A stretch of 26,694 bases of DNA from Gammaproteobacteria bacterium (GTDB lineage Bacteria > Pseudomonadota > Gammaproteobacteria > GCA-002705445 > GCA-002716945), in the NCBI GenBank assembly GCA_038142325.1, contig JAYQJW010000005.1:1-26694 (forward strand), read 5' to 3'. This document shows positions 1,228-26,694 of the stretch, piece by piece. A program made the translations under genes and the position numbers. Each line of letters starts with the position of its first letter. The first letter of the stretch is position 1. The notes beneath the pieces were generated by a model, which was given only the letters and a program-made list of their open reading frames with translations, made no database searches and was not told where the DNA came from.

Positions 1228-1244
1228 TCTTTATATTGTTTTTT
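1228..1244 (-). promoter_or_regulatory. Putative early promoter motif AAAAAACAATATAAAGA
   Basis: Near-identical copies lie 24-30 nt upstream of six ATGs: 1228, 1600, 2560, 3647, 4056 (minus strand) and 4103 (plus strand). Confidence 0.7.
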
Positions 1245-3617: not shown

Positions 3618-3770
3618 CTGCTTCTATATACTACTATAACAGCGTATCTTTATATTGTTTTTTCTTATAAATATATAAGAATAAATCATATAAAAGACCA
3701 AATCCAGTATAATAGAATAAGAAAAAATATGATATAATACCCATTACAGGCATTATATCATAAGATACTT

Positions 3771-4031: not shown

Positions 4032-4149
4032 TTTATAAATATCTATATCAACTCCTCTTTAAATGGTTTTTATACGAATTATTAATATAAATGATTTATA
4101 CGAAAAAACAATATAAAGGGACACTTCTATATATAATTATAATAGCAAG

Positions 4150-4536: not shown

Positions 4537-4628
4537 ATGAAAAAACCATATAAAGACATACCACTATAATTTTTTGTAAAGGCATTTTATAAAGTATTTT
4601 TTTATATTTTATAAAATACTGATTTGAC

Positions 4629-6622: not shown

Positions 6623-7990
6623 ATGAGTGCTTATCCACCGCCTAATGAGAACTTACCAATTTTTAATCCATTAGATTTTCAACGACCTAATATTCCTCTT
6701 ACTATCAACGATGCGAAGGATTATTTTTTAGAATATCCAACAGCACAAGGACAGGAAACATTAAGCAGTATAATAGTAAATGGATCATCAACTTTTAATG
6801 ATGTAGCAGATGTAAATGATACACTAACAATTAATCAACCAACATCATCTCTAAATGCCGTTCAAATAGTAAGTGATAATCCAGGTTATAGTTTAACCGC
6901 CACTTCAAGAACCAATCCAGGAACAGCAGGATTATTAACCATAACAGGTTCATCGTCAGTAGATAAAGAAAACCCAATAGTAGCGGATACGGATAGTGTT
7001 ATATCCACATCTATAAACGGACAAGATGATACAGGAAACTTATGTTTAACTGGTAAATCATCTACAAATGGAAATGGAATTAGAATATTAGCAGGAAGCG
7101 GTGTTTATAATTACGGACCATTTAAATTATTACAAGGAGCAGGTAATCAAAATGCCGAAATTGTTTTTAGTGATTTAACTACACAAACAACAGCATTTAA
7201 TAGCAGTTTATATGCCCCAATTAATTCACCAGTTTTTACAGGTGTTCCAGAAGCACCCACACCAACACAAGGAGATAATAGCACAAAATTAGCAACAACG
7301 AATTATGTAGATACAGCAGTAGGAGGTGGTGGTTCAGTTCATTATACTTATACTGAATTATTTACTAATGGATCATCAGGAACAAGTGTAAGTATAACTA
7401 TACCTGCTAATTGTATTAGATGTGATGTAATGACTTTTGGTAGGGGAGGTTCAGCAGGGCAAACGAATGCTTATGGTTCTTATGCGGTGAATGGAGGTAG
7501 TGGAGGTGGTGCTTCTATGGTATGTGCTTATGGAGTTCCTATCAATTCACTCTCTACATTAGACCTATATTGGACTGCTGGGACTACGAGTTCAGGAATA
7601 GCATATGTAATGTTAAATAGTGCTTTACCATTAGGTTCTGCTTATAATGGTGGAGATGGTGGAGCAGGACAAAGTAGCGGAACAGGAGCAAAAGGAATAG
7701 GTGCTACGGCAGTAGCAACTCAACCAAAGTTCCCCAATAGTTCTTTTGACGGAACAGACGGACAAGATGGTGGATCATCAGGATTTCCTAATAGTAATGT
7801 CCCACACGGCGGTAATCAACCTGTTAATGTAGGAAAGCAGGAAATTATTGGTGGATCACAGGGCGGACCAGGCATAGGACAGAAATATTCTGCTTTTAAT
7901 GACCCTTCTGTATCACCATCATTTTATTATAATGCTTCACCACATTTAAACGCTGGTAGTTGTCTTATAACTTGGTATATTAAACAATAG
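6623..7990 (+). CDS. Fibre/spike-like virion protein 2 with phage tail-fibre repeat and Gly-rich domain
   Basis: Paralogous N-terminus; YAPINSPVFTGVPEAPTPTQGDNSTKLATTNYV matches a tailed-phage fibre motif; Gly-rich C-terminus. Confidence 0.78.
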   Translation: MSAYPPPNENLPIFNPLDFQRPNIPLTINDAKDYFLEYPTAQGQETLSSIIVNGSSTFNDVADVNDTLTINQPTSSLNAVQIVSDNPGYSLTATSRTNPGTAGLLTITGSSSVDKENPIVADTDSVISTSINGQDDTGNLCLTGKSSTNGNGIRILAGSGVYNYGPFKLLQGAGNQNAEIVFSDLTTQTTAFNSSLYAPINSPVFTGVPEAPTPTQGDNSTKLATTNYVDTAVGGGGSVHYTYTELFTNGSSGTSVSITIPANCIRCDVMTFGRGGSAGQTNAYGSYAVNGGSGGGASMVCAYGVPINSLSTLDLYWTAGTTSSGIAYVMLNSALPLGSAYNGGDGGAGQSSGTGAKGIGATAVATQPKFPNSSFDGTDGQDGGSSGFPNSNVPHGGNQPVNVGKQEIIGGSQGGPGIGQKYSAFNDPSVSPSFYYNASPHLNAGSCLITWYIKQ

Positions 7991-8070: not shown

Positions 8071-10365
8071 ATGGCGAATTATCAACCACCAACCGAAGAT
8101 GTGCCTATATTTAATGGTAAGTATTTCACCGCAGAAAACATAACAACAGCAAACGGAGATGGTAGATATTTAAAATTAATAGCACAAGGCGACGAAGATA
8201 TGAATAATTATGATATTCTTAATATCAACCAAGTAGATACTCAATCCGTAAAGTTTGGTGATGGGACTATACAAACAACAGCAGGAGGAGGAGGTGGAGG
8301 AGTTCAAAATCCTATGACTTCCAATTTAGATGCTGGTAATTTTTTTATACAGAATGCTGGTCTAATAGAAACATTTTATTTAGAAAATACAAAAGTAAAT
8401 AATGCTGATGCTATTAAGTATATTAATTTTGGTGCTATAACCGCTGGTGATAAATACTTAATTGGACGAAGTAATAATCGTCTTGCTATGGAAGGTAATA
8501 TTATGGTCTTAATTAGAACTTTGGACGCTGGTTTTAAACAAGAGTTTCTGGCGGAAGTTATAGCATTCCCAGATAGAAGTGTTATAAGAATTATCAATAA
8601 TGTATGTGAAAGCGATACAATACCCATTACTGAAATACTTTATGAAGATGACCCATTAGATCCACTACAATCTGTATTATGTTTTAAATGTGGTGTAAGT
8701 GCTACAAGATGCGATATTTTAGTTTATCAAAATGGTAATGATAATAACACATTAGGAAGTCAATTTTTAATACCTACTACAATAACATCTATACCAACAT
8801 CTACAAATGTATATACATCTGTATTATTGGAAGTCCAAACAGCAGGAACAAGTGGTAATTACAGAACAGCAGGAACAACCTTTTCAAGTGATACACAAAC
8901 TATTACATTAGCAACTAACGCAATAAGAGAATTAACAGCAACAGCAGACATTCAATTACTTAACAATATCAATCTTAATAATAATAGCATTAAAAATACA
9001 AATACAATATCAGTAGATAATATTGGTGTAAATCTCAATAGTGAAATACAATCCACAGCATCAATCAATCTCGGTGGAAATGACCTACAAAATACTAATA
9101 ATGTGTATGTTGATAGTTTAAGAGAGAATACACCAGGTAATAGTATTGTGGTTCATAATACCCTCAATATGAATAATAATCATATACATAATTTAAGTGA
9201 TCCAATACAAAATAAAGATGGTGCTAATAAGCAATATGTAGATACTGCCGTAGCAGGATTTTTAACCAATCCTTTAAATGCTAATTTAGATGGAGCATCA
9301 CTTTATAAAGGTATTAATTTTGTTGATCCAACTAACGCCCAAGATTTAGCAACCAAAAATTATGTGGATACAACAGGAGGAAGTGGAGTTCAAAATCCTA
9401 TGACTTCTAATTTAGATGGTGGGACTTTTAATATTACTAATGTTGGGAACTTCTCTAATGTTCCTACAACAGGTAATTTTTTCAGTAATGGACTATTTCA
9501 ACATTCTAACGGAGCATTCCAAATTGGAGGTTCAGGTATGACGACTGATACAGATGTTAATTTTAATGATAGTGCTACACCTATATTACAAATTAATAAA
9601 ACAGCAAGGCAAATTAATTTAGCGAATGGTTCAACAACATATATTAAACCAGGTGCGGTTTTATCAGCAGGACAAGGTGGAGCATTAATTACATACCAAA
9701 CATCAACACCAGCAACCGCTTATAATGGTGAAATAACAACATCATTTTACCCACCAAATCCAAATAGAAGAAATGATTTTTTGACCTTAACAGGATATAA
9801 TTATGGTAATTCAGTAATTCCTATGGCGATTTCACCGATGACTACACAACAATATTATACTGCTAATGTAGCGGATTATGTGCCTTTTACTGCTGGATTG
9901 GGGTGGAATGCTGGTAATAATGGTGATATAATCCCTCTGGTTCAACGAAATACATTAGTTCAATTGGACGGATTACCACCAGGAATTAATAATCACGATG
10001 CGAATGCGTTTCCGTTTGACGCTCATTTTATAGGAATTGGTTTAAATTGTGCCTCTCAATTAGGAGGTTGGGTATTGACTGGTGTAGCACAAGTAGAATT
10101 AGTTTATAGCATTATTGGTGCGAGTTATGTTTCATTTGTTCCCCCTGTAATAGTAGCACAATCAGGAGCAGGTGGTAATTTAACAATAGAAAATATAAGA
10201 TTACCACAAAGTAGTTGGGTGGAAGCATCTTCTTCCTCTTTTGGTGGTATTCAATTAGGATTACAATTAAACATATCAGGAGCAGATATTATTGATACAC
10301 AAGATCCAAGTAATAAATCTATAAATGCCTGTGGATATTTATTATGTAATATTCCTATCAATTAA
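8071..10365 (+). CDS. Fibre/spike-like virion protein 3
   Basis: Repeats GVQNPMTSNLD (x2), DPIQNKDGANKQYVD and DPTNAQDLATKNYVD; Asn-rich beta repeats. Confidence 0.75.
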   Translation: MANYQPPTEDVPIFNGKYFTAENITTANGDGRYLKLIAQGDEDMNNYDILNINQVDTQSVKFGDGTIQTTAGGGGGGVQNPMTSNLDAGNFFIQNAGLIETFYLENTKVNNADAIKYINFGAITAGDKYLIGRSNNRLAMEGNIMVLIRTLDAGFKQEFLAEVIAFPDRSVIRIINNVCESDTIPITEILYEDDPLDPLQSVLCFKCGVSATRCDILVYQNGNDNNTLGSQFLIPTTITSIPTSTNVYTSVLLEVQTAGTSGNYRTAGTTFSSDTQTITLATNAIRELTATADIQLLNNINLNNNSIKNTNTISVDNIGVNLNSEIQSTASINLGGNDLQNTNNVYVDSLRENTPGNSIVVHNTLNMNNNHIHNLSDPIQNKDGANKQYVDTAVAGFLTNPLNANLDGASLYKGINFVDPTNAQDLATKNYVDTTGGSGVQNPMTSNLDGGTFNITNVGNFSNVPTTGNFFSNGLFQHSNGAFQIGGSGMTTDTDVNFNDSATPILQINKTARQINLANGSTTYIKPGAVLSAGQGGALITYQTSTPATAYNGEITTSFYPPNPNRRNDFLTLTGYNYGNSVIPMAISPMTTQQYYTANVADYVPFTAGLGWNAGNNGDIIPLVQRNTLVQLDGLPPGINNHDANAFPFDAHFIGIGLNCASQLGGWVLTGVAQVELVYSIIGASYVSFVPPVIVAQSGAGGNLTIENIRLPQSSWVEASSSSFGGIQLGLQLNISGADIIDTQDPSNKSINACGYLLCNIPIN
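8299..8332 (+). repeat. 34-bp intragenic direct repeat (second copy 9385-9418)
   Basis: GGAGTTCAAAATCCTATGACTTC(C/T)AATTTAGATG, one mismatch. Confidence 0.9.
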
Positions 10366-10389: not shown

Positions 10390-11061
10390 ATGAATAAATG
10401 GACAAGTGAAGTAGAAGATATATTGGAAAAATTACGAATAAATTGTGTTAATTTAAGTGAGTATCATAGAAAGCGATATTATCATTTTAAAGGTTATGGA
10501 AAGTGGTTCAGGTTGCCCTTAATTATATTGGCGAGTATAAACTCAACAGCATCAGTAGGTCTTCAACCAGTTTTGGATCAATCAGTTATATCTGGTATAA
10601 CCTGTATAATAGGTATGGCGATGGGAATTATTAGTGCTTATGAACTATATTTAGGGATACAAACAAATATGGAATTAGAACTAAAACAGAGTAAGGATTT
10701 TTACACTTTATCAATAGACCTATTTAAAACACTTTCCTTACGAAGAGAGAATAGAGGTGAAGATGGTAAAGATTATTTAAATAAAAAGTATAGTCATTAC
10801 ATAAAACTCACCGAAGCATCTAATTTATTGAAACGAAAGTTAAGTGTTGATACTTTAACCACTATACCAGCGGAGTTTATTGATAATACACCAAAGGGAA
10901 GTGATAGTGGAAGTGTGGAATTACAATTACCACAAGTATATTCACAACCAAGACCATCATACAGCGAAGAAGATTTAAGAGCAGTCAGTAATACTATTGA
11001 TGAAATATGTAATGATATTGTAGAAGGAGAAAAGAAAGAAAAATCTAATGATATTATATAA
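10390..11061 (+). CDS. Two-transmembrane SLATT-like protein
   Basis: W...H...Y helix, then two hydrophobic helices (LPLIILASINSTASVGL; ISGITCIIGMAMGIISAYELYL). ATG 10390 preferred over GTG 10387. Confidence 0.7.
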   Translation: MNKWTSEVEDILEKLRINCVNLSEYHRKRYYHFKGYGKWFRLPLIILASINSTASVGLQPVLDQSVISGITCIIGMAMGIISAYELYLGIQTNMELELKQSKDFYTLSIDLFKTLSLRRENRGEDGKDYLNKKYSHYIKLTEASNLLKRKLSVDTLTTIPAEFIDNTPKGSDSGSVELQLPQVYSQPRPSYSEEDLRAVSNTIDEICNDIVEGEKKEKSNDII

Positions 11062-11708
11062 TGCCTGAACCTTTGGATAAAGAGTTATACGAACAAGTAA
11101 GAAAATATGCGGATTTGGTATATGATAAACCAAGTGCTTATAAATCTGGATTTATTGTAAAAACCTACAAAGAATATGGAGGTAAATATAAAGGGAAACC
11201 TGATAATGAAGGGTTAGATAGATGGTTTGATGAAAAATGGGAAGATATAGGTAATGATGAAGATAAATACCCTACTTTTAGACCTACAATTAGAGTAAGT
11301 GAGAAAACACCTATTACAAAAGGAGAGTTGGATTATGATGAAAAGCGAAAGAAAATAAAAGAGAAACAGAAGATAAAAGGCAAGAAAAATCTACAACCTT
11401 TCGTCAGTAAGGAAAAGAAAGAACGATTAGAAAAGTATAGTGATCCAACACAAGTATTTAAAAAAGCGAGAGAATATCTGGGTAAAGATGTAATTATTGA
11501 AATATCTGGTAGGAAGGATAAAAAATATATGGTAAAAACACCAGAGGGTAAATGGGTTCATTTCGGTCAAATGGGATATGAAGATTTTACCAAGCATAAG
11601 AACCTGAAACGAAGAGAGAATTATTTAAATAGATCCACCAAAATAAAAGGGGATTGGAAAAGGAATAAATATAGTCCAAATAATTTATCTATCAATATAT
11701 TATGGTAG
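11061..11708 (+). CDS. Two-domain protein with C-terminal Tlr6F-like domain
   Basis: KDKKYMV...VHFGQMGYEDFTKHK..RR..YL.R...SPNNLSINILW resembles the Tlr6F family of PLVs, virophages and NCLDVs. N-terminal PSAYKSG...GLDRWFDEKW domain. Confidence 0.75.
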   Translation: MPEPLDKELYEQVRKYADLVYDKPSAYKSGFIVKTYKEYGGKYKGKPDNEGLDRWFDEKWEDIGNDEDKYPTFRPTIRVSEKTPITKGELDYDEKRKKIKEKQKIKGKKNLQPFVSKEKKERLEKYSDPTQVFKKAREYLGKDVIIEISGRKDKKYMVKTPEGKWVHFGQMGYEDFTKHKNLKRRENYLNRSTKIKGDWKRNKYSPNNLSINILW

Positions 11709-11819: not shown

Positions 11820-14135
11820 ATGCCGAGATTGAAAAAAAGCGGTGATGAAGTTGTAGCACCTGTATTTGGTGAAAGTGAATTAATCCTACCTGAATATTTT
11901 GTAATTCCTTTTGGAAAGCAAGGAAAATATAAATTGGTTAATCCTACCAGTCAAGAACGAGGATTAAGCACCAGAGGAAAAAAGAAAGCGTTGAAATTAA
12001 CAAGAAAACCAGTAAAAAATGCGGTTTTGGTTGAGGATATGAGTGATCCAATACCTTTGGAACTATTTAGCAAGAAAGATAGAACCATTATTAGAAATCA
12101 CTACAAGTTAGTAAAACAATTTGAAAACAGACCAGCGAAAGATGTTCCACAATTACAACATACCAAACCAAAAGAAAGAGGAAGACCTGAAACACTACCC
12201 AAAAATATAGAAATCAATAAAGCAAGAAAAGAACCACCAGCACCAGAACCAAAGAAAAGAGGAAGACCTACAAAATACCAAAGCGAAGAAGAAAAGAAAC
12301 AAAAGAAAAGAGAACAAACATTAGCATCTAATAAGCGAAAAAGAGAAGAAAAAAAGAAGGCAAAAGAAGCACAAGCAGAAGGAGGAAACATTATTACTGA
12401 TGTAATTAGAAATGTAAAGAACTATGGTATTAGAAAAGGTTTCACAGAAACCATACAAGATAAAGCACATCAAGCAAAAGCAGTCATAACAGGTAATATT
12501 ACACAATTATCACCAAGATTGAAAGAATTATTAAACCAATATGGATCATCAACTATTAAAGGAATAAGTATTAGGCGTAGTCCAGTATCAGGATTACTAA
12601 CAGGTGCTTTATCCTTCTTCTCTGGTGGTAAGTTTGGTGAAAGACAAAAGGAGCGAGAGTTTGATGAACTATTCCATTTATTTATGGTATTCAACCTTAA
12701 TGATGGTAAGCAAATGCTATTAGAGAAAAATGAGAGAATAAATATGGAGTTAAACCCCAAGAAAAGACCAAAAACAGAAGAAGAAATAGTCAGGGTTTTC
12801 CCTATTGATACTCTGGATCTTAATGGAGTATTAGGTAAAACCAAAGCATATATGGGTGATAAGAAGTTCTTTGGTTATTCAGCAAAAGACAACAACTGCC
12901 AGGACTTCATATTGGCGGTTATGAATGCTAATGATATAGGAGATGCTAATGATAGAAAGTTTGTAAAGCAAGATACAAAGGAATTATTTAGGGATTTACC
13001 TTATTTAAGAAAGTTGAGTAATACTTTAACCAATATAGGAGCAAGGGCAAATGTATTTATGGAAGGTGGAGATATTCATAAAGAATATCAAGACGAAGTT
13101 AAAGCACTATTGAATAAGAAAATGAATGCTTCTATTAAAGGTAGAAAGATGAATGAATTAACTGATAAATATAAAATGCTATGTTATAGTAAATCTATGG
13201 AAGGCAAGGGATTACATAGTGAGTATGCGAGTGATGATGAAGAAATTGAAGGTGATGGTATGGAGGAAAGTATAGATTTTGACGATATTAAATGGGGATC
13301 ATTCACCAAACAATATGAGAGATTTAAGAACCAACATAAAAACTCTAATATAAAAGATTTAGAAGATTTCGCCAGAATGCTATTGAAAGACCCCAGTAAG
13401 TATAATAAAACTACAATTAAAAGGGCAAGATTTTATTTAAATGTATTGCTTCCAAAGAAAAATAAAATCTCTGGTAATAGTATAAATATGGTGAAGAAAT
13501 TAACCAAAAAGCAGATGAAGGCATTAGAGAAGGAAACTGATGGAGAAGGCATTTATTTAAGTGGCGTTGGTGGAGATGGATTATATGCTGGTGAAGGTCT
13601 ATATGCTGGTGAAGGTATGTATGCTGGAAGTGGTTGTGCTATATGTGGTTCTGGAATGGAAGGTGGAGCAATCTACCACCCTATTTTAGCGGAAATTGAT
13701 GGCGGAAATATCTTTAAAAGTGCTGGAAGATGGTTCAGGAAAGCAGGAGATACTATTAACAAGGCAGTCATTAAACCAGTAGCAAAAGAGTTTAGTAAAA
13801 AAGGAACTATACAAAGGGGAGTAAATGACGGACTTAAAGAAGCATTCAAAAAGGGTGGTATTATGGAAAAAGCAGGAAGAACCGCTTTTAGAGAAGGTGT
13901 CCCAGTATTAACTGGTGCTTTAACTGGTGCTTTGGGTGGATTAGCAGGTGGTCCTGGTGGTGCTATGTTAGGGTCTTATGCTGGTTCAAAAGGAGGTCAA
14001 GAATTAGTCAAAATGAGTGGTGTAGGTGTTAAGAAAAGAAGTGCTTGGATAGACCAAGTTAAAGCAGTCCAAAAAAGAGATGGTATTTCTTACAAAGAAG
14101 CACTCAAAGTAGCATCAAGGGAACGAAAAAACTAA
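11820..14135 (+). CDS. Putative core polyprotein: AT-hooks, permuted papain-like domain, multiple adenain sites, Gly-zipper, basic tail
   Basis: ERGRP and KKRGRP; FHL...LEKN...YSAKDNNCQDF; MEGG, MEGKG, IEGDG, IDGG, MSGVG; GALTGALGGLAGG. Confidence 0.75.
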   Translation: MPRLKKSGDEVVAPVFGESELILPEYFVIPFGKQGKYKLVNPTSQERGLSTRGKKKALKLTRKPVKNAVLVEDMSDPIPLELFSKKDRTIIRNHYKLVKQFENRPAKDVPQLQHTKPKERGRPETLPKNIEINKARKEPPAPEPKKRGRPTKYQSEEEKKQKKREQTLASNKRKREEKKKAKEAQAEGGNIITDVIRNVKNYGIRKGFTETIQDKAHQAKAVITGNITQLSPRLKELLNQYGSSTIKGISIRRSPVSGLLTGALSFFSGGKFGERQKEREFDELFHLFMVFNLNDGKQMLLEKNERINMELNPKKRPKTEEEIVRVFPIDTLDLNGVLGKTKAYMGDKKFFGYSAKDNNCQDFILAVMNANDIGDANDRKFVKQDTKELFRDLPYLRKLSNTLTNIGARANVFMEGGDIHKEYQDEVKALLNKKMNASIKGRKMNELTDKYKMLCYSKSMEGKGLHSEYASDDEEIEGDGMEESIDFDDIKWGSFTKQYERFKNQHKNSNIKDLEDFARMLLKDPSKYNKTTIKRARFYLNVLLPKKNKISGNSINMVKKLTKKQMKALEKETDGEGIYLSGVGGDGLYAGEGLYAGEGMYAGSGCAICGSGMEGGAIYHPILAEIDGGNIFKSAGRWFRKAGDTINKAVIKPVAKEFSKKGTIQRGVNDGLKEAFKKGGIMEKAGRTAFREGVPVLTGALTGALGGLAGGPGGAMLGSYAGSKGGQELVKMSGVGVKKRSAWIDQVKAVQKRDGISYKEALKVASRERKN

Positions 14136-14180
14136 ATGGGGCGAGTATGCCCTCATCGTCCGTTAATATAATTGAGGGCA
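14126..14180 (+). promoter_or_regulatory. Predicted -1 programmed ribosomal frameshift signal (slippery heptamer plus H-type pseudoknot)
   Basis: A AAA AAC at 14126-14132, in frame just before TAA; 6-nt spacer. Stem 1 GGGCGA(14139-44)/TCGTCC(14156-61); stem 2 TGCCCTCA(14148-55)/TGAGGGCA(14173-80). The -1 frame is open into ORF 14147. Confidence 0.78.
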
Positions 14181-15484
14181 AAGGTGTAGGGAGCATAGAC
14201 AATTATTATCTAAAAATCCATTTTACAGATGCTAATAAGGATTATAGAAATCTAACAATACATACCCCAACGGAAGCACAGATGAAAACATTTCTAACCA
14301 AATTGAAACCAGTATTAAACAAATATAAAATAAGTGTTGATTTAAGTAAATTAAAAATTGGATCATCAAGATATAAAGACCAAGAGTTCTTTATAGAATG
14401 TTGTGAATGGTATGATATGCCTGAATATAAACAAAATCCAGCACTATTGAATACCAAGCATATAGTATTACAAATACAGAAAGGAAACCAAACTGAACCA
14501 TTCTTAACCGATATTAGCAAAATATTAGGTGAAAACATAAATAAAAAAACCTTTGGTTGGTTTCCAGAAAGACCTAATAAAATACTTAACCCTTATAAGG
14601 GTAAGATGTGGGAAAGTAAAGGACATATGCCGAAGTATCCTATTTACATATTATCCAAAGGTAGATGGGAAAGACGATTAACCAGTAAATATTTGGAATG
14701 GTGTGGAATACCATATAAGATTGTTGTTGAACCACAAGAATACGAAAAATACGCCGAACATATTGATAAGAGTAAAATATTGATTTTACCAAAGAAATAT
14801 CTGGGTAAAGACCAAGGAGGAATACCAGCAAGAAACTTCATAATGGATCACGCCAGAAGCAAAAGTAAAACTGGACGGCACTGGATATTGGACGATAATA
14901 TTGGTGATTGGAAAAGATTAAACAATAATGAAAGAGTTGTAGTCAAAGGTGGTTGTGTGTTTAAGGTAGTAGAAGATTATACAGATAGATATGTTGATGT
15001 GAAAATGAGCGGACATAACTACACTATGTTTGGTATGAACCCATCATTAGATCCAATAACAAAAAATACGAGGGTTTATTCTTCTATATTATTAAGCAAC
15101 GATATACCTGATAAAATAGGTGAAGGTTGGAGAGGTAAATATAATGAAGATACTGATTTATCCTTACGATTATTAAAGGCAGGATTTCCTACCATATTGT
15201 TTAATTGTATTATGGCGAATAAAGAAACTACATTAACAAATAAAGGAGGTAATGAGAAAATCTATAAAGAGAAAGATGGTCTTTATAAAAAGGCAAAGTC
15301 ATTAGCAGACCAGCACCCAGATGTCGCCAAAGTTAGTGAGCGTTATGGAAGAGTTCATCATATAGTAGATTATTCTGGATTTAAAAACCTACCATTAAAA
15401 TTAAAACCAGGTTTAAAAATACCTAAAAAAGTAAATAATTATGGAATGAAATTAGTTGATAAAGTCAAAAACCCTATACCATAA
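14147..15484 (+). CDS. TET/JBP-associated (TAGT/GREB1-like) GT-A glycosyltransferase with N-terminal accessory domain
   Basis: YPIYILSKGR, ARNFIMDH, HWILDDNI, TRVYSSIL, WRGKYNEDTDLSLRLLKAG, KGGN, YGRVHHIVDY. Confidence 0.85.
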   Translation: MPSSSVNIIEGKGVGSIDNYYLKIHFTDANKDYRNLTIHTPTEAQMKTFLTKLKPVLNKYKISVDLSKLKIGSSRYKDQEFFIECCEWYDMPEYKQNPALLNTKHIVLQIQKGNQTEPFLTDISKILGENINKKTFGWFPERPNKILNPYKGKMWESKGHMPKYPIYILSKGRWERRLTSKYLEWCGIPYKIVVEPQEYEKYAEHIDKSKILILPKKYLGKDQGGIPARNFIMDHARSKSKTGRHWILDDNIGDWKRLNNNERVVVKGGCVFKVVEDYTDRYVDVKMSGHNYTMFGMNPSLDPITKNTRVYSSILLSNDIPDKIGEGWRGKYNEDTDLSLRLLKAGFPTILFNCIMANKETTLTNKGGNEKIYKEKDGLYKKAKSLADQHPDVAKVSERYGRVHHIVDYSGFKNLPLKLKPGLKIPKKVNNYGMKLVDKVKNPIP

Positions 15485-15659: not shown

Positions 15660-16193
15660 TTAACATTCACTTAATATCATAGGTTCTCTTGGATCTTCTA
15701 TATCATCAGGACATTCTTTATACTTCATAAAACTTTCCACAGACGGAAACTTCATAACCCTAATGAGGTCTGTAAGTTTATCAACTGGAATATGGTAATG
15801 TGGTTTAGGTCTGTCCCTAATTCCATACCTATAAGTCATCACATCTTTTACTTCAAATGTATCCCATAACTCTTTATCATAATCCAGAGAGCAAGTAGCG
15901 TCTTTAAAATTAAATACGAATACCTGTTTTTTATCTGTATCTCTTACCTTACTAACTGGAACAATTGTAGTAGGGTATGTGTGCTTATTACATCTACGAG
16001 ATTTCAATTCCCAACTTGTTCCGCTGTTTGCTTCAAAGTCATATATGTAGTAATCGTCCCCATAAATGTCTTTGGTGTTCTTAATGTCCTCTTCATCTTC
16101 CCAATTCAGTTTTAGAATGTCTATGACTTCCAACTCTTTTTCTAACCCCATTTTTAGGTCGTTTTTAAAACTACGGATTTTATCACTTTCCAT
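15660..16193 (-). CDS. PD-(D/E)XK superfamily nuclease
   Basis: G..KE helix, then YDF...WELKSR, YPTTIV..SK, FVFNFKD. Confidence 0.75.
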   Translation of the reverse strand: MESDKIRSFKNDLKMGLEKELEVIDILKLNWEDEEDIKNTKDIYGDDYYIYDFEANSGTSWELKSRRCNKHTYPTTIVPVSKVRDTDKKQVFVFNFKDATCSLDYDKELWDTFEVKDVMTYRYGIRDRPKPHYHIPVDKLTDLIRVMKFPSVESFMKYKECPDDIEDPREPMILSEC

Positions 16194-16289
16194 TTATATA
16201 ATATAACTATATAAAAAATTATAGAAAATTAATCTAAATAATTAATTAAATCGCCTAAATATATTTTCTCTCTTAATATTATATATAGA

Positions 16290-17174
16290 ATGGAAAACAT
16301 TAAGGAATACATTTCTAAAAAGCGTCCCTCACTTTCTAAATCGTCCCTCACTACATACGGAAGTATTTTAAGAAACCTCTACAAGAGAGTTTATGAAGAT
16401 GATGATTATAATTTAGACAGATTTAATGTCCCTGCCCCTGTCCTTAAATATTTAGAAGGAATACCACCAAATAGAAGAAAGACCATTTTAAGTGCTTTGG
16501 TAATCATTACAGATAAAAAGGAATACCGAGATTTAATGCTAAAAGATGTAAGGGATTATAACGCCGACATTAATAAGCAAGAGAAGAATGAAAAACAAGA
16601 AGCAAGTTGGGTTGAGAAAGAAGCAGTCAATCAGGTTGTAGCAGAACTACGAAAGAATGCCGAAGCAATTATGAAGAAAGGACAGAAGACCATAAGTGAT
16701 TTACAAGAAATCCAAAATTACATTATTTTATGTGTTTTAGGTGGTGTATATATTTCACCCAGAAGATCCAAAGATTTTGTTGATTTTAAGATACGAAATA
16801 TTGATGTGAAGAAGGATAATTATATGGAGAAGAATAAGTTTATATTCAACTCTTATAAGACAGCAAAAACATACGGCAAACAAGTTGTAGATATACCAGT
16901 TCAATTGAAGAATATTGTAGCAAAGTGGATCAAGATTAACCCCACCGAGTATTTATTCTTTGATGCTAATATGAATAAGTTAAGTGCTGTGAAACTCAAC
17001 CAAAGGTTAAATAAAATCTTTAATGGTAAGAAGGTTGGTGTTAATCAACTGCGTCATACTTATCTTACTGATAAGTTCGCTGATACGATTAAGAAAGAGA
17101 AGGCAATAGCAGACACTATGGAAGATATGGGATCATCAAAAGAGATGTTAAAGACCTATGTAAAGAAAGAGTAG
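16290..17174 (+). CDS. Tyrosine recombinase (virophage/PLV OLV11-like type)
   Basis: PRRSKDF (Arg), YKTAKTYG (Lys), VNQLRH, MGSS...KTYVK (Tyr). Confidence 0.88.
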   Translation: MENIKEYISKKRPSLSKSSLTTYGSILRNLYKRVYEDDDYNLDRFNVPAPVLKYLEGIPPNRRKTILSALVIITDKKEYRDLMLKDVRDYNADINKQEKNEKQEASWVEKEAVNQVVAELRKNAEAIMKKGQKTISDLQEIQNYIILCVLGGVYISPRRSKDFVDFKIRNIDVKKDNYMEKNKFIFNSYKTAKTYGKQVVDIPVQLKNIVAKWIKINPTEYLFFDANMNKLSAVKLNQRLNKIFNGKKVGVNQLRHTYLTDKFADTIKKEKAIADTMEDMGSSKEMLKTYVKKE

Positions 17175-25281: not shown

Positions 25282-26694
25282 TTAATCACTATCACTATCA
25301 TCACCAGTATCTAACATACAACCTGTTTGTTGTTGTTCTTTAACTGATACACCTACCATCATTTTACCAGTTTTACTATTGCCTTCTATTCTAAATTGTT
25401 CTTCACACCATTTATAAAACTCATCTCTACCATACTGCCTTCTTTCTCTGTAAGGCATTCTCTTATATTCATCATCATAAGTTAATAGTATCCCACATAT
25501 CCTTTAATCTTATTGTCTTTGCTTTCTTATCTTGCTTACTATCGTTTTCTTCTACTGGGTTCTTAATATAATGATTGTTGAATAGTTTTAAGAATAGATT
25601 TTGGTTTTCAATAAACTTCTCGGTTCTATCTCTAATAGATTTTGGAATAGTAAAAATAATACCTTTATCGCCATCTGGATCTTTAAAATGTCTATATACA
25701 CCCAACAACATATCTAAAAAGCAATCTCTTACCCTCTGGATAAACTCTTGGGTTTCATAATAGGTATTACCTTCTTTGTATTGTATTCCATCAAAGGTTT
25801 TACCGATTTTCTCTGGATCATCTGTAAAATTAACAGGGAAGAATAAATCTACCAATCTTCTATAATCCGCCCTTTGTGGTTTTCCATCTAAATCTGGTGA
25901 ATTATTGAACTCCATAACAAAAGTAGCACTCATATAGAAACTTTCTGGATTACAATTCAACAATCTACCACAGAACTTACCACCACCAGTAAGGTTTCTT
26001 AACATAGCAACTCTAATAGCACCTGCTACTTCCTTGAAGTTGATATATCTTTTATTCTTTAAATTAAACATATCTGGTGAAGGTGTATTCGCCCTCTCTA
26101 CATCTTTCAATATACCATTACCAGGTTGAAAGTAATACTCACCTAATACTGCGTCCATTAATGAACCAGTAAGACCCTTACCATTACCACCTTGTCCGTT
26201 GAATAAAAATAACTTCTGGTATGCTCTACCATCTAACCCACTCGCCAATACTTTCAAAAATAATTCTCTGTGTTCTGGATCTGGGTGTATATCTTCAAAT
26301 ATCTTCGCCAACATTTCTTTTGTTTCTTGATTATGTTTATCTGTATAATCTACTTCTTTGTAATCGTATTTTGTTGATAAGGTAATATAGTCATCAAAAG
26401 TGTAATCTCTAAACTCGTCTTTTCTTAAATCATACACACCATTATTGAAACCTAATAAGAATGGATCACTATTAAAATCAGTTTCTATTTCCTTTGCTTT
26501 GGTGAGAATATGCTTAATTATATCATTCATTTTGTTAGATACACTACAATTGGTTCTTAATGTTTTTAACAACTTGTTTATATCCTTCTCATCTAACTCC
26601 ACAGCACCAACAATTTCATTATGAATAATATTAAATAAATCCTCACTTATATATCTGTATAATTTATATTGCTTATCTTTGTGAGTTTCATTAT
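25282..26694 (-). CDS. 3' part of TVpol-SF3 (D5-like) helicase; as sequenced stops at 25475, +1 frame continues to 25282
   Basis: LLGFNNGVYDL (D5-N), Walker A GQGGNGKG, Walker B YINFKE, NLTGG, MEFNN, ADYRRLV..FPVNF. Confidence 0.9.

What the first reader, a model, noticed from the sequence alone, without database searches (positions are those of the whole stretch)
14147..15484. Phage-type TAGT glycosyltransferase with no TET/JBP or methylase partner
Seen: complete TAGT/GREB1-like motifs, plus an N-terminal EWYDMPEY...WFPER segment resembling (from memory) a small protein encoded next to such genes in phages. No dioxygenase, hydroxymethylase or methyltransferase was recognised in the genome. 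Known: this family glycosylates hydroxymethylated pyrimidines (e.g. base J synthesis). Inference: the substrate must come from the host or helper (e.g. hmU/hmC-containing DNA), the enzyme may act on foreign DNA, or it has shifted to a non-DNA acceptor.
Basis: partly seen in the sequence, partly recalled or inferred. Interest (0 to 1): 0.72.

Follow-up and report, generated by a model that had tools for sequence, protein, structure and literature searches.

The report
Orphan DNA-type sugar transferase in virophage
A small virus that parasitises giant viruses carries a sugar-adding enzyme of the kind that decorates DNA bases but lacks the partner enzyme that prepares the base, while sister viruses carry both enzymes fused in the same genomic spot.

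Summary
ORF 14147-15484 is a full-length TAGT glycosyltransferase (Pfam 115 bits, GT-A fold). Residues ~86-160 are homologous to a small protein encoded just upstream of TAGT in many phages, where it is sometimes fused to ParB_N. No dioxygenase, ThyA-type hydroxymethylase or DNA methylase was found in the element.

The window is a complete circular virophage-like genome of about 26.7 kb, binned with a 1.1-Mb bacterial assembly. Its TAGT belongs to a large virophage clade, sister to phage split and short forms.

New here:
- The gene sits in a variable slot behind orf771. In sister virophages that slot holds a TAGT fused to a divergent TET/JBP-type dioxygenase.
- One virophage of the window's own TAGT clade (L002) has that dioxygenase as a separate gene directly upstream of its TAGT.
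- TAGT repeatedly adjoins or fuses to DUF5872, a module also fused to DNA methylases.

Best reading (0.45): it is the sugar-adding half of a hydroxylate-then-glycosylate DNA-base pathway and depends on a hydroxylase supplied in trans. Protein glycosylation (0.28) is not excluded.

The scan earlier noted orphan, partnered TAGTs on phage DNA, but none on a virophage.

The parts
14147..15484 (+). TAGT glycosyltransferase gene, 445 aa, basic (pI 9.5)
   Evidence: Pfam TAGT 115 bits; PHROG 842; AF2 pLDDT 89, GT-A fold; pI
14147..14401 (+). residues 1-85: N-terminal segment conserved only among long (virophage-type) homologs (ITIHT...M..F)
   Evidence: alignment A1; no Pfam hit at E<=1
14402..14626 (+). 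residues 86-160: adaptor module (W88, MPEY, WFPERP). In phages this is a separate small protein or the C-terminus of a ParB_N protein
   Evidence: With residues ~30-85 it models as a generic alpha+beta sandwich (best Z 5.6)
14627..15256 (+). residues 161-370: TAGT catalytic core (YPIY..SKGR, GIPxRN, HW.LDDN, GHNY, WRGxYNEDxD)
15257..15481 (+). residues 371-445: conserved C-terminal tail (HPDV...RxGRxHHxVxY), shared with the phage forms
   Evidence: phage matches run to residues 436-445
14136..14146 (+). 11-nt G+C-rich spacer between the orf771 stop codon and the TAGT start. No promoter-like motif of either class seen elsewhere in the genome
   Evidence: junction identical in L001, L192, L168 and L165
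11820..14135 (+). orf771: basic 771-aa modular protein with two RGRP motifs and a Gly-rich C-terminus. It is the conserved left border of the variable glycosyltransferase slot
11061..11708 (+). DUF5872 + DUF5754 protein (215 aa). This module is adjacent to or fused with TAGT in other virophages
15660..17174 (.). orf177 (-) and integrase-like ORF 16290-17174 (+): the conserved right border of the slot

Best explanation
The gene encodes the sugar-adding half of a two-step 'hydroxylate, then glycosylate' DNA-pyrimidine hypermodification pathway.

The protein is a natural fusion of four parts:
- a virophage-specific N-terminus;
- an adaptor module that in phages is a separate subunit, sometimes joined to a ParB-type domain;
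- a GT-A TAGT catalytic core;
- a conserved basic tail.

It is probably expressed as a unit with the upstream gene orf771. I propose that it transfers a sugar from an NDP-sugar onto 5-hydroxymethyl-uracil or -cytosine in DNA, or onto a sugar already attached there as T6-type TAGTs do, inside the giant-virus factory.

This virophage has no hydroxylase. The acceptor would therefore have to be made in trans by the helper giant virus, a co-infecting virophage that carries the dioxygenase-TAGT fusion, or the host.

Shown: family membership, architecture, absence of a partner in this genome, and presence of the partner in relatives. Inferred: DNA as acceptor, the source of the hydroxylated base, and the biological role (shielding or marking DNA in the virophage/giant-virus conflict).
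For: - Full-length TAGT with invariant catalytic motifs and a GT-A fold.
- In 18 syntenic relatives the slot between orf771 and orf177/integrase-like holds the window-type TAGT in 3 and a TAGT-dioxygenase fusion in 5.
- The fusions are TAGT above Pfam's cutoff (29.5, 48.9 and 43.5 bits). Their C-terminal domain has an invariant HxD...H triad, and across 123 representatives H, D and H are the only invariant columns.
- Of those 123, 22 match Tet_JBP (best E 1.4e-10), 10 match 2OG-FeII_Oxy_3 (best 5.8e-5) and 40 carry TAGT.
- In L002, a virophage with a Sputnik-type MCP and a TAGT of the window's clade, a stand-alone copy of the dioxygenase (E 7.8e-42) lies about 30 nt upstream of the TAGT.
- The sister phage clade couples the same adaptor module to ParB_N (2 of 8 long partners above cutoff, 1 just below). 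ParB homologs activate phage DNA thymine dioxygenases (PMC13229309, passages read).
- DUF5872, which neighbours or fuses to TAGT, is also fused to D12 and N6/N4 DNA methylases.
- The protein is basic throughout (pI 9.5).
- The closest cultured fused form is a tandem pair in Vibrio phage Kuja (Ackermannviridae), which also has a ThyA-family gene. Genes for 5-hmdU-derived bases are reported as conserved across that family (PMC6336734, passage read).
- T6-type TAGT works without TET (PMC13390438, passages read).
- RNA-library contigs from four studies cover the gene in close relatives.
Against: - No source of a hydroxylated base in this genome or in a complete 31-kb TAGT-bearing relative.
- The giant-virus bin holding one TAGT-bearing virophage contig has no Tet_JBP and no match to the virophage dioxygenase profile.
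- Only 1 contig among the window-type lineages with visible context shows the dioxygenase next to the TAGT, and 0 of 148 window-type homologs are fused to it.
- The dioxygenase family is only weakly assigned. The virophage copies themselves score Tet_JBP at 16 bits (cutoff 34.9) or 2OG-FeII_Oxy_3 at E 0.075, and the Atlas neighbours are split between Tet_JBP and P4H-type clusters.
- The same slot holds a GT32-type DXD transferase in L193, and the dioxygenase also fuses to GT32. That family is not known to act on DNA (my own knowledge).
- DUF5872 also fuses to a lipase-like hydrolase, so it is not DNA-specific.
- A TAGT domain can glycosylate protein, as in GREB1 (PMC7968844, abstract).
- No biochemical data exist for any member of this clade.
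Confidence: 0.45

Rival explanations
1. Protein glycosylation. The enzyme decorates a virophage protein: the acidic, Ser/Thr-rich fibre-like proteins at 6623-7990 and 8071-10365, orf771, or the DUF5872 protein. In relatives the fused dioxygenase would then be a protein hydroxylase, giving a hydroxylate-then-glycosylate logic like that of collagen lysyl hydroxylase/glycosyltransferases.
For: - GREB1's TAGT domain O-GlcNAcylates a protein (PMC7968844, abstract).
- In 9 of 18 syntenic relatives the slot directly behind orf771 is filled by one of three glycosyltransferase types, including a GT32-type DXD enzyme.
- The dioxygenase family also matches P4H-type 2OG-FeII_Oxy_3 (10 of 123) and has NCLDV P4H-like neighbours in the Atlas.
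- GT-then-DSBH is also the domain order of LH3, which heads the Foldseek list (E about 5e-6).
- The two fibre-like proteins are 16-22% Ser+Thr.
- Real collagen genes occur in some TAGT-bearing relatives (L003, L075).
Against: - The Foldseek matches are generic GT-A (TM 0.28-0.33).
- The window has no Pfam Collagen hit, and its 'collagen-like' ORFs are tail-fibre-like.
- Glycosyltransferase presence does not track G-X-Y repeat genes (1 repeat-bearing locus among 80; Fisher p 0.16-0.36).
- orf771 is not Ser/Thr-rich (9.3%).
- Tet_JBP is the better match for the dioxygenase family (22 against 10 members; best E 1.4e-10 against 5.8e-5).
- The phage sister clade is wired to ParB_N and lies among replication and packaging genes.
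Confidence: 0.28
2. DNA glycosylation on an acceptor that needs no known hydroxylase. The adaptor-bearing TAGT clade, phage and virophage, would attach sugar to a DNA position that no TET/JBP or ThyA-type enzyme has to prepare first, or one prepared by an enzyme family not yet recognised.
For: - The whole clade is 'orphan' in the records tested: Tet_JBP 0 of 8 (three of them 100% complete), ThyA 0 of 5, C5 methylase 1 of 5.
- Earlier notes of this scan report the same for several phages (unchecked leads).
- Radical SAM/SPASM genes recur next to phage members (4 loci; L094).
Against: - Canonical DNA bases offer no hydroxyl for O-glycosylation, and I know of no precedent (my own knowledge).
- The window has no radical SAM gene or other candidate enzyme.
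- L002 and Kuja show that members of the clade can sit beside hydroxymethyl-pyrimidine-type enzymes.
Confidence: 0.12
3. Functionless passenger. The gene is a recently acquired or decaying accessory gene left without its pathway.
For: - It is sporadic: the window-type TAGT is in only 3 of 80 loci of related virophages.
- It has no partner enzyme.
Against: - The frame is intact and every family-invariant residue is kept.
- It is 87-99% identical across contigs from many samples, with an unchanged junction to orf771.
- The long clade is large and old (114 of 185 rows in the tree).
- RNA-library contigs cover it.
Confidence: 0.05

Closest known systems
T2/T6 beta-glucosyl-HMC-alpha-glucosyltransferase (TAGT, PF20691; PHROG 842)
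   Same: Same Pfam and PHROG family. Like the window enzyme, it works without a TET partner, adding a second glucose to glucosyl-hmC (PMC13390438, passages read).
   Different: T-even phages make hmC themselves with a ThyA-family enzyme and also have a first glucosyltransferase (my own knowledge). The window has neither. The adaptor module and the N-terminal segment were not compared with the T6 protein here.
Phage 'small partner + TAGT' cassettes, including ParB_N-adaptor fusions and short fused forms
   Same: 50-55% identity over core and tail. The adaptor module is homologous. No TET/ThyA in the records tested.
   Different: In the window the adaptor is fused to the enzyme and preceded by a virophage-specific 85-residue segment in place of ParB_N. 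It falls in a separate clade (SH-like 89/99, SH-aLRT 99). The host element is a virophage, not a tailed phage.
Phage C5-methylase / TET (5mYOX) / glycosyltransferase clusters, and kinetoplastid JBP + JGT (base J)
   Same: The two-step hydroxylate-then-glycosylate logic. Relatives of the window carry TAGT fused to a TET/JBP-type domain in the same slot.
   Different: The window has only the transferase. The virophage dioxygenase is a divergent family below Pfam's Tet_JBP cutoff in the copies tested. No C5 methylase was seen in the virophage loci.
GREB1 (animal TAGT-domain protein O-GlcNAc transferase)
   Same: TAGT catalytic domain with a non-DNA acceptor as precedent (PMC7968844, abstract; PMC6163654, passages read).
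   Different: GREB1 joins TAGT to a permuted SF2 helicase module (PMC6163654). No such domain is present here.
Collagen lysyl hydroxylase/glycosyltransferases (human LH3; Mimivirus L230, recalled)
   Same: GT-A domain followed by a 2OG dioxygenase, as in the virophage fusion proteins. LH3 heads the Foldseek list for the window model.
   Different: The match is generic (TM about 0.3, 10-11% identity). The window has no dioxygenase and no Pfam Collagen gene.

Membership tests
TAGT (Pfam PF20691) | Full-length match to the family profile above the curated cutoff | tested here: met
   115 bits against 27.5, profile positions 1-205 of 205
TAGT (Pfam PF20691) | GT-A fold with conserved acidic (DxD-type) motifs | tested here: met
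   AF2 pLDDT 89; only GT-A enzymes among Foldseek hits; D249-D250-N251 and N333-E334-D335-x-D337 invariant in 31 homologs
TAGT (Pfam PF20691) | Genomic association with a TET/JBP dioxygenase | tested here: not met
   None in the window or its assembly. It is met in relatives: L002 by adjacency and slot-mates by fusion.
TAGT (Pfam PF20691) | Sugar transfer to hydroxymethyl-pyrimidine (or its glucoside) in DNA | not testable with these tools
   Needs enzyme assays or nucleoside LC-MS
Phage partnered TAGT (adaptor + TAGT) | Presence of the W..MPEF...W[FY]P adaptor module | tested here: met
   Residues 86-160
Phage partnered TAGT (adaptor + TAGT) | Adaptor linked to a ParB_N domain | tested here: not met
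   No Pfam hit on residues 1-163 at E<=1. Even among phages only 2 of 8 long partners pass the cutoff.
Virophage (Preplasmiviricota, Sputnik-type capsid) | Sputnik-type double jelly-roll major capsid protein | tested here: inconclusive
   The 593-aa ORF has no Pfam or PDB sequence hit. Its nearest Atlas clusters are Preplasmiviricota, and one has Sputnik MCP domains in 29% of members (lead only).
Virophage (Preplasmiviricota, Sputnik-type capsid) | A32-type packaging ATPase, adenain-like cysteine protease and primase-helicase on a genome of about 17-30 kb | tested here: met
   Pox_A32 48.5 bits, D5_N 48.6 bits. The protease is only sub-threshold (ElaD/SseL-like E 6e-5, Peptidase_C5 E 7e-4). 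The contig is circular at about 26.7 kb.
GREB1-type protein glycosyltransferase | TAGT joined to a circularly permuted SF2 helicase module | tested here: not met
   TAGT is the only Pfam family on the protein at E<=1
LH3 / L230-type collagen hydroxylase-glycosyltransferase | GT-A domain joined to a lysyl hydroxylase domain, with collagen substrates encoded | tested here: not met
   No dioxygenase domain in the protein or the genome and no Pfam Collagen ORF in the window. The structural similarity to LH3 is generic.

The most novel reading that the evidence does not exclude
Virophages run a base-J-like DNA hypermodification system, a TET/JBP-type dioxygenase plus a TAGT, that is swapped in and out of one genomic slot. 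This lineage keeps only the transferase, fused to its docking adaptor, and so relies on a hydroxylation step performed by its giant-virus helper or by a co-infecting virophage. DNA glycosylation would then be a shield or a mark in the three-way conflict between host, giant virus and virophage. To my knowledge this would be the first hypermodified DNA proposed for a satellite virus of eukaryotic viruses.
Probability: 0.25. Interest if true: 0.85.

Novelty: new variant of a known kind. Interest (0 to 1): 0.62.

Why it matters
Glycosylated DNA bases are well documented in tailed phages and in kinetoplastid base J. Four full-text searches pairing 'virophage' with TAGT, glycosyltransferase, glucosyltransferase or GREB1 terms found no paper linking TAGT to virophages.

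If these enzymes act on DNA, virophages would join that list. The orphan transferase would then be a concrete case of one virus depending on another's DNA-modifying enzyme.

The work also defines three testable objects:
- a large family of divergent TET/JBP-type dioxygenases fused to TAGT (2,563 representatives at E<=1e-3);
- a docking adaptor shared by phage and virophage TAGTs;
- a promiscuous DUF5872/DUF5754 module attached to DNA methylases, TAGT and a hydrolase.

Such transferases could also be useful for labelling 5hmC or 5hmU.

A practical point: a complete virophage-like genome is sitting as one contig of a bacterial genome assembly.

Tried and rejected
- PDB sequence search with the TAGT gave 0 hits at E<=1. 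With the putative MCP it also gave 0. With the fusion-protein profile it gave nothing relevant.
- The N-terminal 163 residues modelled alone (pLDDT 71) gave only generic alpha+beta sandwich matches (best Z 5.6, DCoH-like), and no Foldseek hit at E<=0.001. No function could be read from the fold.
- Complex prediction on TAGT with the DUF5872/DUF5754 protein returned 'no answer' (score 0.01 against a mark of 0.32). This counts neither for nor against binding.
- Collagen idea: my early label 'collagen-like' for ORFs 6623-7990 and 8071-10365 was wrong; they are tail-fibre-like. Glycosyltransferase presence did not track G-X-Y repeat genes.
- Helper-supply idea: giant-virus bin G009 has no Tet_JBP and no match to the virophage dioxygenase profile. 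L006, L075, L085, L086 and L165 could not be searched as whole records.
- I could not settle whether the dioxygenase is TET/JBP-like or P4H-like. Pfam on single virophage copies is sub-threshold for both, and the Atlas neighbours are mixed.
- The paper that defined TAGT (Iyer et al. 2013, cited in PMC6163654) is not held, so I could not check whether it mentions virophage members or the adaptor.
- RNA-library contigs do not prove transcription.
Full report
**What the window is.** The two ends of the window share a 26-base direct overlap. With the overlap removed, a single 807-aa ORF on the minus strand crosses the junction. Its C-terminal half (ORF 25475-26692) carries D5_N and matches phage primase families. 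The contig is therefore a complete circular genome of about 26,668 bp.

Its genes include:
- a Pox_A32-type packaging ATPase (48.5 bits);
- an adenain/Ulp-like protease, below Pfam cutoffs;
- two RING-finger proteins;
- a DUF5872+DUF5754 protein;
- a weak integrase-like ORF;
- a 593-aa ORF whose nearest ESM-Atlas clusters are Preplasmiviricota, one of them with Sputnik MCP domains in 29% of members (lead only).

The capsid ORF has 101 relatives in IMG/VR, of which 80 were fetched, all on contigs of about 4-27 kb. The element is thus virophage-like. It is contig C5 of a 1.10-Mb, 9-contig, 98.5%-complete assembly, which earlier notes describe as a tiny marine gammaproteobacterium. A mis-binned virus is the simplest reading. 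DNA runs from estuary, seawater and marine metagenomes of five studies hold at least half of the sampled words of the TAGT region.

**The observation.** ORF 14147-15484 (445 aa) matches Pfam TAGT over the whole profile (115 bits, cutoff 27.5) and PHROG 842. A word-indexed search found 6,294 proteins at E<=0.001 among the 8,000 candidates scored. The top hits were 42-68% identical, mostly covered more than 90% of the query, and many lay on contigs of 15-37 kb. Near-identical copies (99%) occur on several contigs of 26.5-26.9 kb.

In 31 aligned homologs the catalytic-type motifs are invariant. The AlphaFold model is confident (pLDDT 89, pTM 0.87) and resembles only GT-A enzymes (E about 5e-6, TM about 0.3). 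No relative has a solved structure by sequence search.

- 37 of these small ORFs align to residues ~74-152 of the window protein (26 at E<=0.1).
- A 46-sequence alignment shows a shared module, EWxGMPEF...VHF...FAxLIGQ...KTxSIWxP.
- Of 8 long partners scanned, 2 carry ParB_N above cutoff and 1 just below it.
- These loci are tailed phages, with terminase, portal, capsid, ERF, Sak, RecA and SSB genes.

There are three architectures: split; short fusion (84-96 residues before the YPIY motif), found in loci with phage genes; and long fusion (108-197 residues). The fold of the N-terminal region is a generic alpha+beta sandwich.

**Phylogeny.** A FastTree of 185 TAGT cores gives:
- a clade of 114 rows (111 long forms, support 89) that contains the window;
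- a phage clade of 67 rows (46 split, 19 short, 2 long; support 99);
- a group of 3 long forms apart from both.

IQ-TREE on a 67-row subsample puts the window in a 32-row set of 31 long forms plus 1 short (SH-aLRT 99). One very long branch and one row of odd composition were left out of that subsample.

Long-clade loci with context are virophages. L002 has Sputnik_MCP_1st (E 8.9e-93), MCP_V20_C and V18/19. L003, L085 and L086 have D5-type primase-helicases. L085, L060 and L075 have A32-like ATPases.

**Missing partners are the rule.**
- Tet_JBP: 0 of 8 whole records, including two virophage-type records and one phage record rated 100% complete.
- ThyA: 0 of 5.
- C5 methylase: 1 of 5, a provirus.
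- No such family among 115 ORFs of 10 loci at E<=1e-4.

**The slot.** Among 80 loci of capsid relatives (at least 49% identity), the window-type TAGT occurs in 3, DUF5872/5754 in 16 and orf771 in 26. In the 18 loci where orf771 and orf177/integrase-like flank one slot, the contents are:

| Slot content | Loci |
|---|---|
| window-type TAGT | 3 |
| 418-471-aa TAGT-dioxygenase protein | 5 |
| GT32-type DXD transferase plus a 382-aa ORF | 1 |
| unknown 401-aa protein | 3 |
| 213-aa ORF | 1 |
| nothing, or only a small ORF | 5 |

The 418-471-aa protein is a TAGT above cutoff in its full-length copies. It is joined to a C-terminal domain with an invariant HxD...H triad.

**The dioxygenase family.** Homologs of that domain number 73 in the indexed search. 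None has a precomputed Tet_JBP label. Many are fused to TAGT, four to GT32 (two of those also with TAGT) and one to DUF5872.

A profile search of 1.84 billion representatives finds 2,563 at E<=1e-3. I aligned 123 of the 144 newly listed hits; 21 were dropped for a size limit. In that alignment only H, D and H are invariant. Pfam finds TAGT in 40, Tet_JBP in 22 (best E 1.4e-10) and 2OG-FeII_Oxy_3 in 10 (best 5.8e-5).

Single virophage copies remain sub-threshold (Tet_JBP 16 bits), and the Atlas neighbours are mixed. The TET/JBP assignment is therefore probable, not settled.

An HMM of the domain run over all loci held found a stand-alone 223-aa copy in L002 (E 7.8e-42), about 30 nt upstream of its long-clade TAGT. 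That copy keeps every family-invariant residue. The HMM found nothing in the window, the assembly, a complete TAGT virophage record or a 955-kb giant-virus bin.

None of 148 window-type homologs carries the domain. Of 21 IMG/VR loci with the domain:
- 19 have it inside ORFs of 430 aa or more (18 at the C-terminal end, and L247 mid-protein);
- 1 has a short partial ORF;
- 1, the L002 contig, has it stand-alone beside a window-type TAGT.

L245 is TAGT+dioxygenase, and L247 is TAGT (weak)+dioxygenase+DUF5872.

**DUF5872.** TAGT is followed, with an 8-nt overlap, by a 587- or 652-aa DUF5872 protein in L003 and L086. It is fused to DUF5872 in L085, and preceded by DUF5754 and DUF5872 ORFs in L060.

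Longer homologs of the window's DUF5872/5754 protein carry:
- D12 adenine methylase (two, E about 1e-22);
- N6_N4 methylase (two, near cutoff);
- an Mbeg1-like hydrolase (three, near cutoff);
- DUF5661.

I read the module as a general targeting or docking device. This is inference. orf771 shares segments with such proteins.

**Expression hints.** A 16-base motif, AAAAAMYAWTWTAAAG, occurs 6 times against 0.17 expected, five of them upstream of the primase-helicase, the RING genes and neighbouring ORFs. A TCTx...TATATA pattern precedes capsid, protease, ATPase and fibre-like genes (by eye).

TAGT has neither pattern. It starts 11 nt after the orf771 stop codon, and this junction is identical in four relatives of 87-97% protein identity.

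RNA-library contigs about 95% alike, from four studies, cover 14126-15455, and one bridges the orf771 end into TAGT. DNA carry-over cannot be excluded.

**Cultured relatives.** 23 phage records match at 34-42% identity: T4-like Aeromonas phages, and Vibrio, Pectobacterium, Tenacibaculum and Paraglaciecola phages. Vibrio phage Kuja (Ackermannviridae) has two adjacent ~450-aa copies that align from residue 37, and a ThyA-family gene about 7 kb away. Genes for 5-hmdU-derived bases are reported as conserved in that family (PMC6336734, passage read).

**Verdict.** The enzyme most likely acts on DNA as the second step of a pathway whose first enzyme is present in relatives but absent here (0.45). 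Protein glycosylation (0.28), a new DNA acceptor (0.12) and a functionless passenger (0.05) remain as rivals.

I rate it a new variant of a known kind. The broader pattern, TAGT and TET/JBP-type genes cycling through one virophage slot, is the more interesting result.

Noticed in passing
window 1-26694: The contig is a complete circular virophage-like genome (26-base terminal overlap; an 807-aa primase-helicase ORF crosses the junction). It is filed as one of 9 contigs of a 1.1-Mb bacterial assembly, so it is probably mis-binned.
   Followed up: partly
window 1229-1244, 1601-1616, 2561-2576, 3648-3663, 4103-4118, 4540-4555: A 16-base motif, AAAAAMYAWTWTAAAG, occurs 6 times against 0.17 expected by shuffling. 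Five copies lie upstream of the primase-helicase, orf87, two RING-type ORFs and orf265, like an early promoter. Structural genes instead show a TCTx...TATATA pattern, seen by eye.
   Followed up: partly
window 14133-14149: The orf771 stop codon, an 11-nt G+C-rich spacer and the TAGT start are identical in four relatives, although the flanking coding sequence varies. No promoter-like motif is present. This could be a stop-restart or co-transcription signal.
   Followed up: partly
window 11820-14135: orf771 has two RGRP (AT-hook-like) motifs at residues 120 and 147, a central FHLFMVF...NNCQDFI stretch that from memory resembles H-box/NC (LRAT-like) enzymes, and a glycine-rich C-terminus. It shares segments with proteins carrying DUF5872, DUF5754 or DUF5661.
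   Followed up: partly
window 11061-11708; P0154, P0173, P0178, P0194, P0179, P0186, P0192: DUF5872/DUF5754 is a promiscuous module on virophage-size contigs, fused to D12 and N6/N4 DNA methylases, to TAGT and to an Mbeg1-like hydrolase.
   Followed up: partly
L199:11549-12802, L203:13391-14767, L205:16869-18281, L245:5149-6684, L247:1418-3766: A large family of TAGT fused to a divergent TET/JBP-type dioxygenase (2,563 representatives of the dioxygenase domain at E<=1e-3). L247 adds DUF5872 as a third part.
   Followed up: yes
L243:15024-15659; L181:1063-2019: Related virophage contigs encode ThyX (E 1.3e-41) and a ribonucleotide reductase small subunit (E 2.5e-100).
   Followed up: no
window 6623-7990 and 8071-10365: Two acidic (pI 4.3), Ser/Thr/Gly/Asn-rich fibre-like proteins carry the TTNYVDTAV motif of phage tail fibres (PHROG tail-fibre hits). 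They are not collagen.
   Followed up: partly
L004, L014, L021, L022, L042, L046; L266 (Vibrio phage Kuja): Tandem pairs of TAGT paralogues occur in several phage loci and in a cultured Ackermannviridae phage.
   Followed up: no
L035:4303-5586 and 23 other phage loci: A 428-aa protein with no Pfam hit is the commonest neighbour of the phage partner-TAGT pair (24 loci). It lies just downstream and is often near packaging genes.
   Followed up: no
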